Source of the DNA: a virus
Lineage: Duplodnaviria > Heunggongvirae > Uroviricota > Caudoviricetes
Virus record (IMG/VR): IMGVR_UViG_2778261509_000017
Direction: 5' to 3' (one strand)
DNA length: 20,805 nt
Positions 3,001-6,000 of this stretch are shown here, in pieces. Within the stretch, counting starts at the first letter, position 1, and each line of letters begins with the position of its first letter. The position numbers are program-made.

Positions 3001-6000
3001 CATCAGGTTGTTTGCGCATTGATGTGGAGATACGCTTCCAGTCTTCGCGATCTCTGGCGATAACTTCATTTTTTGCCCAGCGATGGATGCTGCCGTCAAT
3101 GCTTCCGGCATCCACATCACCAGGCCAGAGAGCGTAGGCCAGTTCTTCATCCAGCGTTTTCCATGTCTGCTTATATTCGCGACGAATGGCAGCAGTGGCA
3201 GGGTTGATTTTTTCTGCTGAGTTTTCAGTGTGCTGTCGGTTGACTCTGACGCGGGCAAGGTCAACAACAGAAGTATACGCACCACCTTCTTTGCGCGCCT
3301 TTTCCAGGCGTTTTTTACGGTCGAGAAAATATGCCTGAACGTCGGGCCATTTGGCGGTTGGTTTTAAATCACGTCTGGCATCGTTGATGTATTCAATCTG
3401 ACGTTCCGGATACATGGCGTTAATTTCTTTAGTCCGGATAATTGCCTCTGCGAGGTGTCCGTCAAAGGTCATCATGTCATCATCGCCAAGAAGCCCGCTT
3501 GCGTTGATGACCATATCCACGGTGATGTTTTCATGTGTGCCAAACTTAACGAGGACAGCAGCCTGCTTGTCGTCAGATAACTGATTAAAGTTAACAATTT
3601 CTGTATTCGGCTCAGGTTCGACCGGGACAAAGGAAGCGGATTCCTCATCCCAGCGGTTTTCCAGCATATATTCGGTATCCCAGGAGTCGATGGCAGGGCG
3701 GGGCATGCCGGGTTTATCCTCGCAGACAAGAAATTTATAAGCGCAGTCCTGAGCAGCCGGATATTGCTCCAGGAATTGCCAGGTAAATTTGGCACGGGCG
3801 CGGCGTTCGTCACCAGCTTCGATGGCAGTGGCTACAGCAACTGCACCTTCTTCCTTTATTGCCTGTTCGTCCGGAATGGCGGCGCAAATAAAGACTTTAC
3901 TCATTTTGTTTTAACCTCATTACAGATTTAAGGGTGAACAAATCCCTGCCATTGCTGGCATATAAAAATGAAACCGGATATTAATTACGGTGCTGTTTTA
4001 AGTCCTGCCGGGATTTCGTTATTGTCCATGTGAATAACTTTATCAACCGGATAACAGTTGCCGGGAATTTTCTGTTCCGCTGCGGCAGCCGTGCATTCTT
4101 TCATTGAACCGTAAATGTCAATAACCAGATCAACAGGCTCGCCAGTATTAAGAAAAACTGTCAGAACGAGTGCAAATGCTGTATTCATTGCCAGCATCCT
4201 TTTTGCATCGGGCGTAAACGTGCCAGCATTGAAAGAATGCATATTTTATTTAATAGCTCCCGTTCGTGTTTTCTCTTATTAATGGCATCTTCAGTAAATG
4301 CAGGGTTACTGATTCTGACACCAATTTCAAAACAACCTTCAGACGTATTAACGTTTGGTAATAACGTTTCCATTATCGCGTCCTCAACAATGAATTTTGT
4401 GATGCGGTGCCTGGTGCCTCCAGGTGACGTTAACCAGTTAACAATTAACGCCGGATACAGAGAAACCACCCATAAGAACCAATACGGAAGTCAACAGGCC
4501 TTTTTAACTGTTCCGCGTGCGCTGAGCCGCATTCACCGCATCACAAAATTCACCTTAAAAAGGGCGGGTATCACGGGGAAAACAAAACAGATACCCGCCA
4601 AAAGGTAATCAACATGGGTTGTTGCAGCGGGGTTGTCACTCAGGCGTATGGTCAACCTGACAACCCGGTGTTATCTCGAGGAAAGGATAGCCTCGCCATA
4701 CTTACCGCCGCGCCATTTCGCGGATTGCCACAACCGGAAGCGCACGGTCGAAGAAATCTAACGACAAGCCTTCTAAGGAAAAGACATCTCCGCCGTGCGC
4801 TTTCGCGTTATGCCCTGACTTTTCAGGGATATATCCTTTCAGTAAACTGTCAGTGCCGGATTCTTATCCGTGTCCGGCGCACGACAACACGCTGTCACGT
4901 GTGGTCTCCATTCTCAACCAGTAACCTCAATGGAGGATAAAATGCCAAACAAGCCAATACATCCGCTTATTGAAAAACAGATTGAATGCCTGGTTAATCA
5001 ACTCAGGCAATCAGGGTTATTAAAAACACATTCAGAGCTAGGGCTCACAGAATCGGCATTCGACGATAAATTAAATAATGCGCTTTATAATGGCATCATT
5101 GATTACAATCGTGGTGCTGGTCGCCGTGGCCCTGCTGGTACAGCTTTGTAATTACCAGTTAATCCATAGCGGATAGTGTTCAGCATAAATATAGCTATAC
5201 ACATCCAGGTTGTATTTGCGGTCTGTCCTTAGCAGGTCGCAAATACACGCCGCAGCTTCCAGGGCGGAAGCTTTGTTGCTGAATAACCATGTAGCAACAT
5301 TCCAGCGATTATCTTTATCCCACTCTTTTGCGAGAGCTGACACCACGAAGGAGCCGTTGGTGTTGCCATCAAATACTTCCGTTTCCAGATTTTTAAGTAA
5401 TGCCTGGTGAATTTTTGCCAGGTATTCAGTCGGAATTTCGCCACGAATTCGGATAAGGTTGTCATAAACAAACATGTTTCCCGCATATGGCGATTTTTCT
5501 TCCTTGTTTTTTAAACCAGCATCATGAGCAAACTGATCAATTTCTTCTTCCGTTGGTTTCGTGTTGATGTTTTGCGCTGTCGTTTCTGCAATGAGTTTTG
5601 CTTTATTTTCTACACAATGATTGTTTGTGAACGAATATGAATACAGTCCGGTAAAGGAATTGCGGACATGATTTGATAAATTTCTGATGAACAGTTTATC
5701 TACTAATATCATTGGGTTCCGCGCCAGTTGCGAGCGAATCACATCAGCGGCCATTTCCTGTATTGAAATTGGTAAATCTTTAAATTCCATAGTCAACCTC
5801 ATCAGTCGGTGGTTTTAAATCACTCGCGAAACGTTTAATGCCGCGCTTTTTGCCAGAGCGGTAATATCCTGCGTCACTGACGCCAGTGTTTCAGAGAGGC
5901 GCTCTTTGTGATCAGTGGCCTGCTTCAGGTCATTAATGGCGCGTATCTTCCCGCGCATCCACTCATAAAGTTCATCATCGGTATAGTCTGGCGCGATGAT

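What the first reader, a model, noticed from the sequence alone, without database searches (positions are those of the whole stretch)
4374..4941. Structured noncoding region with an 18-bp perfect inverted repeat and an adjacent hairpin
About 570 bp has no convincing ORF but contains an 18-bp perfect inverted repeat (4392-4409 and 4534-4551) around 124 bp, tandem TTAAC repeats, and a 10-bp-stem hairpin (4563-4599). It lies within the leftward early transcript upstream of small coupled ORFs. It could be a processing or termination signal, a protein-binding site pair, or a small RNA locus.
Basis: seen in the sequence. Interest (0 to 1): 0.45.

Follow-up and report, generated by a model that had tools for sequence, protein, structure and literature searches.

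The report
DicF-slot sRNA and RNase III stem
This "structured noncoding region" is the known small-RNA and RNA-processing segment that sits upstream of the cell-division inhibitor gene dicB in an E. coli prophage, but the small RNA in it is an unannotated variant that no longer looks like the classic DicF.

Summary
There is a 19-nt perfect inverted repeat (4391-4409 and 4534-4552), a 10-bp hairpin (4563-4599) followed by five T, and three TTAAC copies.

On the minus strand, 4374-4885 is homologous to the E. coli K-12 Qin ydfC-dicF-dicB interval, and dicB (4185-4373) lies immediately downstream.

The hairpin occupies the position of the DicF terminator. The inverted repeat forms a long-range RNA helix, 26 bp with wobble pairs. 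In K-12 the published RNase III cut that gives the 72-nt DicF falls at position 10 of the helix's 5' arm. A second 22-bp hairpin (4735-4805) matches the upstream RNase III site.

The helix encloses three hairpins. Twelve pairs show changes on both sides across the Qin, Rac (kilS-kilR) and 933W (STnc100) versions.

Folding predicts that the dicB ribosome-binding site is paired before the cut and free after it.

The new part is the sRNA cassette. It is only 49% identical to DicF, gives no Rfam DicF match and has no ftsZ complementarity. It occurs in about 3% of complete E. coli genomes and was not annotated in any listed hit.

The slot is a swappable cassette that also holds DicF and KilS.

Verdict: a known kind of element carrying a new variant; moderate interest.

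The parts
4185..4373 (-). dicB (62 aa cell-division inhibitor), the gene served by the structured region.
   Evidence: Pfam DicB PF05358, 125.6 bits. RefSeq annotates dicB in an identical genome.
4382..4385 (-). dicB Shine-Dalgarno GAGG, predicted to pair with the U-tract at the base of the long helix.
   Evidence: Read from the sequence. Pairing seen. P(unpaired) is 0.05 in the read-through RNA and 0.75 after the inferred cut.
4391..4409 (-). 3' arm (in the RNA) of the long-range helix. The inferred RNase III cut is near 4398-4402.
   Evidence: 19-nt perfect complement of 4534-4552. Conserved in all homologs. The cut position is inferred from the K-12 72-nt DicF end.
4410..4424 (-). Hairpin P4 (CCUGG-AGGCA-CCAGG).
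   Evidence: Consensus fold. U-A to G-C compensation in 933W.
4426..4452 (-). Hairpin P3, built from the three TTAAC copies.
   Evidence: Four pairs are changed on both sides in Rac or 933W.
4456..4511 (-). Variable centre of the enclosed domain. It has a 14-nt insertion relative to K-12.
   Evidence: 59% identity to K-12, against 93-98% in the flanks. Several sequence types exist among homologs.
4515..4530 (-). Hairpin P1.
   Evidence: Consensus fold. Three compensatory pairs against 933W.
4534..4552 (-). 5' arm (in the RNA) of the long-range helix. The K-12 RNase III cut giving the 72-nt DicF maps to arm position 10, about window 4543.
   Evidence: Literature: PMC5069750 and PMC9438474.
4557..4561 (-). 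U-tract of the intrinsic terminator. It is also the base of the extended helix, pairing with the dicB SD.
   Evidence: Sequence.
4563..4599 (-). Terminator stem-loop of the DicF-position sRNA (10-bp stem, 17-nt U- and C-rich loop).
   Evidence: Fold of -19.7 kcal/mol, z = -3.5. Same position as the DicF annotated in phage Tritos and K-12.
4557..4610 (-). Predicted type-B sRNA of about 50 nt. The 5' end is uncertain; in K-12 it is made by RNase E.
   Evidence: Cassette alignment. No Rfam DicF match. Found in 155-188 of 5426 genomes, with 'none' annotated under every listed hit.
4621..4885 (-). Conserved noncoding leader, homologous to the K-12 ydfC-dicF intergenic region.
   Evidence: 86% identity to K-12. 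Structured, z = -3.2.
4735..4805 (-). Upstream 22-bp hairpin. It corresponds to the RNase III site that makes the 5' end of the 190-nt pre-DicF in K-12.
   Evidence: Fold. Mapping of the 190-nt species. PMC10448788.
6206..6234 (-). Candidate PL-like promoter that would drive the leftward transcript. It lies outside the finding.
   Evidence: Promoter-like site, 9 of 12 matches. Window 6205-6255 is 86% identical to the HK022 PL region. It lies downstream of the cI-like HTH gene 6324-6743.

Best explanation
The region is the intercistronic RNA-processing segment of a dicBF-type leftward early operon in a lambdoid prophage integrated next to ompW.

On the minus-strand transcript the proposed order of events is:
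1. A conserved 265-nt leader carries a 22-bp hairpin (4735-4805). In K-12 the equivalent hairpin is cut by RNase III to start a 190-nt precursor.
2. A small RNA sits in the DicF position. Its 3' end is the 10-bp hairpin (4563-4599) plus U5, an intrinsic terminator where some polymerases stop.
3. In transcripts that read through, the arms 4534-4552 and 4391-4409 pair into a 19-bp perfect helix, 26 bp with wobble pairs. The helix closes a 124-nt three-hairpin domain and extends onto the dicB Shine-Dalgarno.
4. RNase III cuts this helix. That separates the sRNA from the dicB mRNA and leaves dicB with a short, unstructured leader, which probably switches its translation on.

What is shown: the homology, the structure and its covariation, and the position of the published K-12 cut relative to the helix.

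What is inferred: that cleavage happens in this strain, that it unmasks the ribosome-binding site, and that the sRNA is functional.

The sRNA itself is not DicF. It is a different cassette (type B) in the same slot, without ftsZ complementarity, so it most likely has other targets.
For: Homology:
- Window 4374-4885 (minus strand) aligns with the K-12 ydfC-dicF-dicB interval. Identity is 86-98% in the scaffold segments and drops to 49% in the sRNA cassette and 59% in the spacer centre.
- dicB lies immediately downstream.
- Phage Tritos annotates DicF at the hairpin position.

Published processing, mapped onto the sequence:
- RNase III processing of full-length dicBF RNA gives a 72-nt DicF (PMC5069750; PMC9438474).
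- 72 nt from the K-12 DicF 5' end is position 10 of the 19-nt 5' arm.
- The 190-nt species depends on RNase III (PMC10448788). Its 5' end maps to the 3' arm of the upstream 22-bp hairpin.

Structure:
- The minus-strand fold is -95 kcal/mol, z = -4.9, with the arms paired.
- The consensus of 54 distinct spacers gives the same 26-bp helix and three hairpins.
- Pair 4538/4405 shows C-G 44, U-G 8, U-A 1, C-A 1.
- There are 32 G.U cells against 8 non-standard cells on the sense strand.
- With Rac and 933W included, 12 pairs are changed on both sides, against 1.8 +/- 1.2 in shuffles (0 of 500) and 0-3 in slid registers. 97.8% of cells are paired, against 35-38% when slid.

Ribosome-binding site:
- P(unpaired) of the SD is 0.05 before the inferred cut and 0.75 after it. 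K-12 gives the same result.

Cassette:
- All cassette types fold into a terminal hairpin plus U-run on a shared GGCGG/CCGCC base.
- In Rac the same slot holds KilS, verified by northern blot and RIL-seq.
- Type B gives no Rfam DicF match, while K-12 DicF scores 76.7 bits.
- Cofold gain on the ftsZ ribosome-binding region is -2.1 kcal/mol for type B and -11.3 for DicF.
Against: - No experimental data exist for this strain or for the type-B cassette.
- I could not read the primary paper (Faubladier 1990). The 72-nt end is taken from two secondary sources, and the exact nucleotide is computed from the annotated 53-nt 5' end.
- Within the Qin-type spacers the helix is almost invariant, and there is only one compensatory change. 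Most double changes come from two outgroup sequences, and the tested structure was derived from these same sequences.
- The pairs that cover the Shine-Dalgarno are weak (U.G, U-A, U.G), and the effect on translation is only a folding prediction.
- The terminator scan did not call the hairpin, because its loop limit is 8 nt and this loop is 17 nt.
- The leftward operon upstream of the leader is disrupted here by a head-on ORF (4942-5151) and a truncated pseudogene. Transcription into this region from PL is therefore assumed, not shown.
Confidence: 0.8

Rival explanations
1. The type-B cassette is a decayed DicF remnant. It still terminates transcription and is still processed, but it has no regulatory targets. 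On this view the region works only as a terminator plus processing site for dicB.
For: - No ftsZ complementarity.
- No Rfam family match.
- It is a minority type, in about 3% of complete genomes.
- The upstream operon is disrupted in this prophage.
Against: - The stem is perfect, and within type B it is invariant in all but one single-locus variant (GATCCCCGCC). Loops keep a U-rich plus UYCCC motif across three subtypes.
- The cassette is a discrete replacement (49% identity) inside 86-98% flanks, not scattered decay.
- The same slot yields a verified non-ftsZ sRNA, KilS, in Rac.
Confidence: 0.3
2. The long helix controls dicB purely by sequestering its ribosome-binding site, as a translational or structural switch. 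RNase III plays no necessary part.
For: The SD is predicted to be paired in the read-through RNA, with P(unpaired) 0.05. The base of the helix reaches the SD.
Against: - A perfect 19-bp duplex is far longer than sequestration needs, and it is the substrate size for RNase III.
- The published rnc-dependent 72-nt DicF end falls in the middle of the arm.
- The SD-covering pairs themselves are weak.
Confidence: 0.1
3. The two arms are DNA-level sites: a pair of operators for a DNA-binding protein that loops the DNA, or a cruciform.
For: A perfect 19-bp inverted repeat 124 bp apart. The plus strand also folds, z = -3.9.
Against: - Most arm substitutions (7 of 11 types, 32 of 40 variant cells) give G.U on the sense RNA, which are mismatches on the other strand and in a DNA palindrome.
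- The intervening hairpins covary.
- The site lies 1.7 kb from the repressor and operator region.
- No similar sequence occurs elsewhere in the window.
Confidence: 0.03
4. The repeat marks a miniature inverted-repeat transposable element inserted between the sRNA and dicB.
For: Terminal inverted repeats of 19 nt around a 124-nt core.
Against: - No flanking direct repeat (AAGG on one side, TTGT on the other).
- There are no empty sites. All 112 loci with enough sequence have both arms at a fixed spacing of 107-129 nt in the same operon position.
- No other copy in the window.
- The core is homologous to the Rac kilS-kilR spacer and to STnc100, with conserved RNA structure.
Confidence: 0.02

Closest known systems
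dicBF operon of the E. coli K-12 Qin prophage (ydfABC-dicF-dicB-ydfD): DicF sRNA with its RNase III and RNase E processing (Faubladier 1990; Balasubramanian 2016; Ragunathan 2023)
   Same: - Gene order and orientation.
- Leader 86% identical.
- Both RNase III stems.
- A terminator at the same position.
- Spacer arms and hairpins 93-98% identical.
- dicB and a DUF1482 (ydfD-like) gene downstream.
   Different: - The sRNA cassette is replaced: 49% identity, 9-10 nt shorter, both DicF seed regions changed, no Rfam DicF match, no ftsZ complementarity.
- The spacer centre carries a 14-nt insertion.
- The inverted repeat is perfect here, whereas K-12 has two G.U pairs.
- ydfA, ydfB and ydfC are absent and replaced by other DNA.
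KilS sRNA and the kilS-kilR interval of the K-12 Rac prophage (Bar et al. 2021)
   Same: - An sRNA ending in a GGCGG...CCGCC-U5 terminator.
- It is followed at once by the same 5' arm and a spacer 80% identical over 186 nt.
- Then a 3' arm and a small FtsZ-inhibitor gene.
- An opposite-strand gene lies upstream.
   Different: - The downstream gene is kilR, not dicB.
- The leader upstream of the terminator is unrelated.
- The 3' arm has a 1-nt bulge and a G.U pair.
- The KilS body differs from type B.
STnc100 (Rfam RF02076), a prophage sRNA downstream of stx2B in Stx phages
   Same: Four-part architecture: a closing helix with a GGUG/CACC core plus three hairpins. Nine compensatory differences appear in a sequence-only alignment.
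   Different: - The score is 33.6 bits, below the gathering score of 47.
- The STnc100 helix is only 7-8 bp, too short for RNase III. The outer 11-12 bp are specific to the dicB and kilR versions.
- STnc100 has its own terminator and lies in the late operon.
RNase III sites that unmask or control a downstream ribosome-binding site (lambda N leader, E. coli adhE, T7 early mRNAs) - from general knowledge
   Same: A long duplex just 5' of a Shine-Dalgarno in a phage early transcript, with cleavage predicted to free the SD.
   Different: No sequence relationship. The effect on dicB translation has not been tested.

Membership tests
DicF sRNA (Rfam RF00039) | Matches the Rfam covariance model at or above the gathering score of 48 bits. 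| tested here: not met
   No DicF match at E <= 10 in 4150-5200 or in the isolated cassette 4550-4630. K-12 DicF scores 76.7 bits in the same test.
DicF sRNA (Rfam RF00039) | Located in a dicB-type operon, between the conserved leader and dicB, and ending in an intrinsic terminator. | tested here: met
   Alignment with K-12 and Tritos. 10-bp stem plus U5.
DicF sRNA (Rfam RF00039) | Antisense complementarity to the ftsZ translation-initiation region. | tested here: not met
   Cofold net gain is -2.1 kcal/mol for type B and -11.3 for DicF. The duplex is no better than shuffles: 72% of shuffles score as well.
DicF sRNA (Rfam RF00039) | 5' end made by RNase E; binds Hfq. | not testable with these tools
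   Needs northern blots or primer extension in rne-ts and hfq strains.
RNase III processing duplex of the dicBF transcript | A double-stranded RNA of about 20 bp or more, formed on the sense transcript. | tested here: met
   19 bp perfect, 26 bp with wobble pairs. G.U bias and a C-G to U-A compensation on the sense strand. Covariation.
RNase III processing duplex of the dicBF transcript | A mapped RNase III-dependent end inside the duplex. | tested here: inconclusive
   For the K-12 ortholog, the published 72-nt DicF end maps to arm position 10. Nothing has been measured for this sequence, and I could not read the primary paper.
STnc100 (Rfam RF02076) | Matches the covariance model at or above the gathering score of 47 bits. 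| tested here: not met
   33.6 bits, E = 2.3e-5, model positions 21-154 of 206. K-12 gives 34.1 bits.
STnc100 (Rfam RF02076) | Own intrinsic terminator; position downstream of stx or in the late region. | tested here: not met
   The domain runs straight into dicB without a terminator. True STnc100 lies after stxB2 and has a terminator.
Miniature inverted-repeat transposable element | Target-site duplication, and copies in unrelated contexts or empty sites. | tested here: not met
   No flanking direct repeat. Only one copy in the window. Fixed position in all 112 informative loci.
HK022 put antiterminator RNA | Sequence similarity to putL or putR. | tested here: not met
   blastn with word size 7 against the whole HK022 genome gives only chance-level hits, none in the PL or PR leader regions. 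Structural similarity was not tested.

The most novel reading that the evidence does not exclude
The DicF position may be a swappable "warhead" slot in a conserved processing scaffold: leader RNase III hairpin, then sRNA cassette, then RNase III helix domain, then a small toxic gene. On this reading:
- DicF, KilS, the window's type B and at least three further cassette types are alleles of one slot. Lambdoid prophages exchange them and recombine the scaffold onto different division inhibitors (dicB, kilR, others).
- The window's cassette is a functional Hfq-type sRNA with targets other than ftsZ.
- The roughly 140-nt STnc100-like domain excised by RNase III has its own variable centre and is a second, unrecognised RNA product.
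Probability: 0.35. Interest if true: 0.55.

Novelty: new variant of a known kind. Interest (0 to 1): 0.38.

Why it matters
DicF is a textbook prophage sRNA, and its copy number and targets are used to explain cell division, metabolism and EHEC virulence phenotypes.

Three points follow from this analysis:
- Rfam-based genome annotation silently misses the sRNA in a subset of dicB loci. Type B alone is in about 3% of complete E. coli genomes.
- Such loci should not be assumed to make an ftsZ antisense RNA.
- DicF and KilS appear to be two cassettes of one scaffold. No paper in the searched library mentions both names.

If the cassette variants are functional, this locus would be a natural example of seed swapping within a fixed biogenesis frame.

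It also gives a concrete, testable model in which RNase III couples sRNA release to translation of the toxic DicB protein.

Tried and rejected
- Rfam at gathering thresholds found nothing in the region. Permissive searches found only a sub-threshold STnc100 match and noise.
- The intrinsic-terminator scan missed the hairpin because of its loop limit. It found no minus-strand promoter inside 4150-5200, including the TTGACT in the spacer centre.
- Put-like antiterminator idea: no similarity to HK022.
- MITE idea: rejected.
- Coding potential: open frames are not conserved among homologs. A 154-codon antisense frame is broken in the commonest variants.
- Unrestricted RNAduplex of the sRNA against ftsZ gives inflated duplexes. 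I replaced it with a cofold net energy.
- The primary papers Faubladier 1990, Faubladier & Bouché 1994 and Melson & Kendall 2019 are not held. The 1994 paper may already describe dicF-like variants.
- The RNase III cleavage atlases mention DicF only by citation.
- Genome-wide target prediction for the type-B sRNA was not feasible with the data at hand.
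Full report
**1. Observation**

The region contains a 19-nt perfect inverted repeat, with arms at 4391-4409 and 4534-4552 and 124 nt between them. It also contains a perfect 10-bp hairpin, 4563-4572 pairing with 4590-4599. Three TTAAC copies lie at 4430-4449.

The arm sequence occurs nowhere else in the window, even with 3 mismatches allowed. In 500 dinucleotide shuffles the longest perfect inverted repeat never exceeded 13 nt.

**2. Context**

The window is a lambdoid prophage next to ompW. It has an integrase, an excisionase, an 827-aa exonuclease, a DUF1482 gene, dicB, and a cI/cro-type immunity region further right.
- dicB is 4185-4373 on the minus strand (Pfam DicB, 125.6 bits).
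- Its stop overlaps the start of the DUF1482 gene.
- A promoter-like site at 6206-6234 on the minus strand lies in a stretch 86% identical to the HK022 PL region.

The finding therefore lies in the leftward early operon, directly upstream of dicB.

**3. Homology**

On the minus strand, 4374-4885 aligns with the K-12 Qin ydfC-dicF-dicB interval and with phage Tritos, which annotates DicF at the position of the hairpin. Identity to K-12 is strongly mosaic:

| Segment | Identity to K-12 |
|---|---|
| Leader | 86% |
| sRNA cassette | 49% |
| U-tract and 5' arm | 93% |
| P1 | 95% |
| Spacer centre | 59% |
| P3, P4 and 3' arm | 98% |
| dicB start | 97% |

Homology ends near 4885. Upstream, K-12 has ydfC, whereas the window has a head-on 69-aa ORF (4942-5151) and a truncated pseudogene.

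No open frame across the region is conserved among homologs.

**4. The inverted repeat**

Two reviews citing Faubladier et al. 1990 state that RNase III processing of full-length dicBF RNA gives a 72-nt DicF, alongside the 53-nt terminated form (PMC5069750; PMC9438474). Counting 72 nt from the annotated K-12 DicF 5' end lands on position 10 of the 19-nt 5' arm, the middle of the duplex. The inverted repeat is therefore the RNase III substrate that separates DicF from the dicB message.

The minus-strand RNA folds with the arms paired: -95 kcal/mol, z = -4.9.

A consensus fold of 54 distinct spacers from about 200 loci gives a 26-bp helix, 4534-4559 pairing with 4383-4409, with one bulge. It encloses three hairpins: P1, P3 (made of the TTAAC copies) and P4.

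Variation within Qin-type loci is slight but informative:
- Pair 4538/4405 shows C-G 44, U-G 8, U-A 1 and C-A 1.
- G.U cells outnumber non-standard cells 32 to 8 on the sense strand. Each of those G.U pairs would be a mismatch on the other strand.

**5. Wider relatives**

The K-12 Rac prophage has the same scaffold. The annotated sRNA KilS ends in a GGCGG...CCGCC-U5 terminator. It is followed at once by the same 5' arm, a spacer 80% identical over 186 nt, a 3' arm with one bulge, and kilR, another FtsZ inhibitor. KilS was verified by northern blot and RIL-seq, with yncL as its partner (PMC8175672).

The spacer also matches Rfam STnc100 below threshold (33.6 bits against a gathering score of 47). 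True STnc100 lies after stxB2 in 933W and has the same four-part architecture, but its closing helix is only 7-8 bp.

I ran a formal pair count on 14 diverse sequences that included Rac and 933W:
- 12 pairs are changed on both sides, against 1.8 +/- 1.2 in shuffles (0 of 500 reach the observed value) and 0-3 in slid registers.
- 97.8% of cells are paired, against 35-38% when the partners are slid.

Two caveats apply. Most double changes come from the two outgroups, and the tested structure was derived from these sequences.

**6. Second RNase III site**

Ragunathan et al. 2023 show that the 190-nt DicF precursor depends on RNase III. Its 5' end maps to the 3' arm of a hairpin that in the window is a 22-bp stem, 4782-4805 pairing with 4735-4759. 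This is the inverted repeat listed as I4.

**7. Likely consequence for dicB**

The base of the long helix pairs the terminator U-tract with the dicB Shine-Dalgarno, GAGG at 4382-4385. Partition-function folding gives P(unpaired) of 0.05 for the SD in the read-through RNA and 0.75 after the inferred cut. K-12 gives the same values.

I infer that RNase III cleavage both releases the sRNA and activates dicB translation. This is a prediction, not a measurement.

**8. The hairpin and the sRNA**

The hairpin plus U5 is the terminator of the sRNA in the DicF slot. However:
- The cassette is not DicF by Rfam. There is no match at E <= 10, even for the isolated 81 nt, while K-12 DicF scores 76.7 bits.
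- Both DicF seed regions are replaced.
- With intramolecular structure included, DicF gains -11.3 kcal/mol on the ftsZ ribosome-binding region. All type-B variants gain only -2.1, from the U-tail alone.

A survey of 29 distinct cassettes shows two alternative 5' modules and at least five hairpin interiors on a shared stem base.

Type B occurs in 155-188 of 5426 complete E. coli genomes, and every listed hit has "none" annotated under it. It also occurs in one phage record.

I found no paper in the held library describing natural DicF cassette variants, and none that mentions both KilS and DicF. Two older primary papers that might do so could not be read.

**9. Not a mobile element or a protein site**

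All 112 loci with enough downstream sequence carry a 3' arm at a fixed distance. These loci were selected through the leader and 5' arm, not through dicB. The scaffold is sometimes joined to kilR or to a third gene, with the junction in the outer half of the 3' arm. There is no target-site duplication. There is no similarity to HK022 put RNA.

**10. Verdict**

The finding is real and is explained by a known system, the dicBF-type sRNA and RNase III processing segment. The protein-binding and transposon ideas are not.

The new elements are:
- an unannotated, non-DicF cassette in the DicF slot;
- evidence that DicF, KilS and other cassettes share one modular scaffold;
- covariation support for the enclosed STnc100-like domain.

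Interest is moderate.

Noticed in passing
window 12948-13119 (+): Rfam sok antitoxin (hok/sok-type toxin-antitoxin RNA), 107.5 bits, full length.
   Followed up: no
window 18418-18490 and 18595-18668 (+): Two tRNA genes in the late region of the prophage, 58.9 and 71.7 bits.
   Followed up: no
window 4942-5151 (+) and 5152-5802 (-): A 69-aa ORF with no Pfam match lies head-on inside the leftward operon. It abuts a gene that RefSeq marks as an N-terminally truncated pseudogene. Its position resembles that of sieB upstream of kilS in Rac. It replaces ydfC and the first ~60 nt of the K-12 intergenic region.
   Followed up: partly
window 4456-4511 (-): The centre of the helix-enclosed domain is a second variable island: 59% identity to K-12 against 93-98% in the flanks, with a 14-nt insertion. 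Several sequence types exist among homologs, and the type is linked to the sRNA cassette type. It might be a seed region if the excised domain is itself an RNA product.
   Followed up: partly
L113, L172, L202; L140, L200, L201; L171: The same leader, cassette and helix scaffold is joined to kilR, or to a third unidentified gene (MLNVAIENQNGWNY...), instead of dicB. L171 has yet another downstream sequence. The junction lies in the outer half of the 3' arm.
   Followed up: partly
L214 7406-7503 (-) (K-12 Rac): The annotated sRNA KilS occupies the slot equivalent to DicF and shares its terminator base and downstream RNase III-type helix. No held paper mentions both KilS and DicF.
   Followed up: yes
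PP818812.1 5993-6061 (hit H56): A record named "Actinobacillus phage vB_Apl-pPE4" carries the E. coli type-B cassette at 95.7% identity. The host assignment looks doubtful.
   Followed up: no
L088 (JAGZPX010000007.1): A contig binned as a Veillonella parvula MAG encodes DicB at 82% identity with the full E. coli-type spacer. This is probably binning contamination.
   Followed up: no
window 6205-6255 and 6583-6918: Similarity to the phage HK022 PL and immunity region, 86% and 71%. This prophage's repressor and operator module is HK022-like rather than Qin-like.
   Followed up: no
window 4374-4941 (+ strand): A 154-codon antisense open frame spans much of the region and is also open in K-12 (130 codons). 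It is broken in the commonest homologs, so it is not coding.
   Followed up: yes
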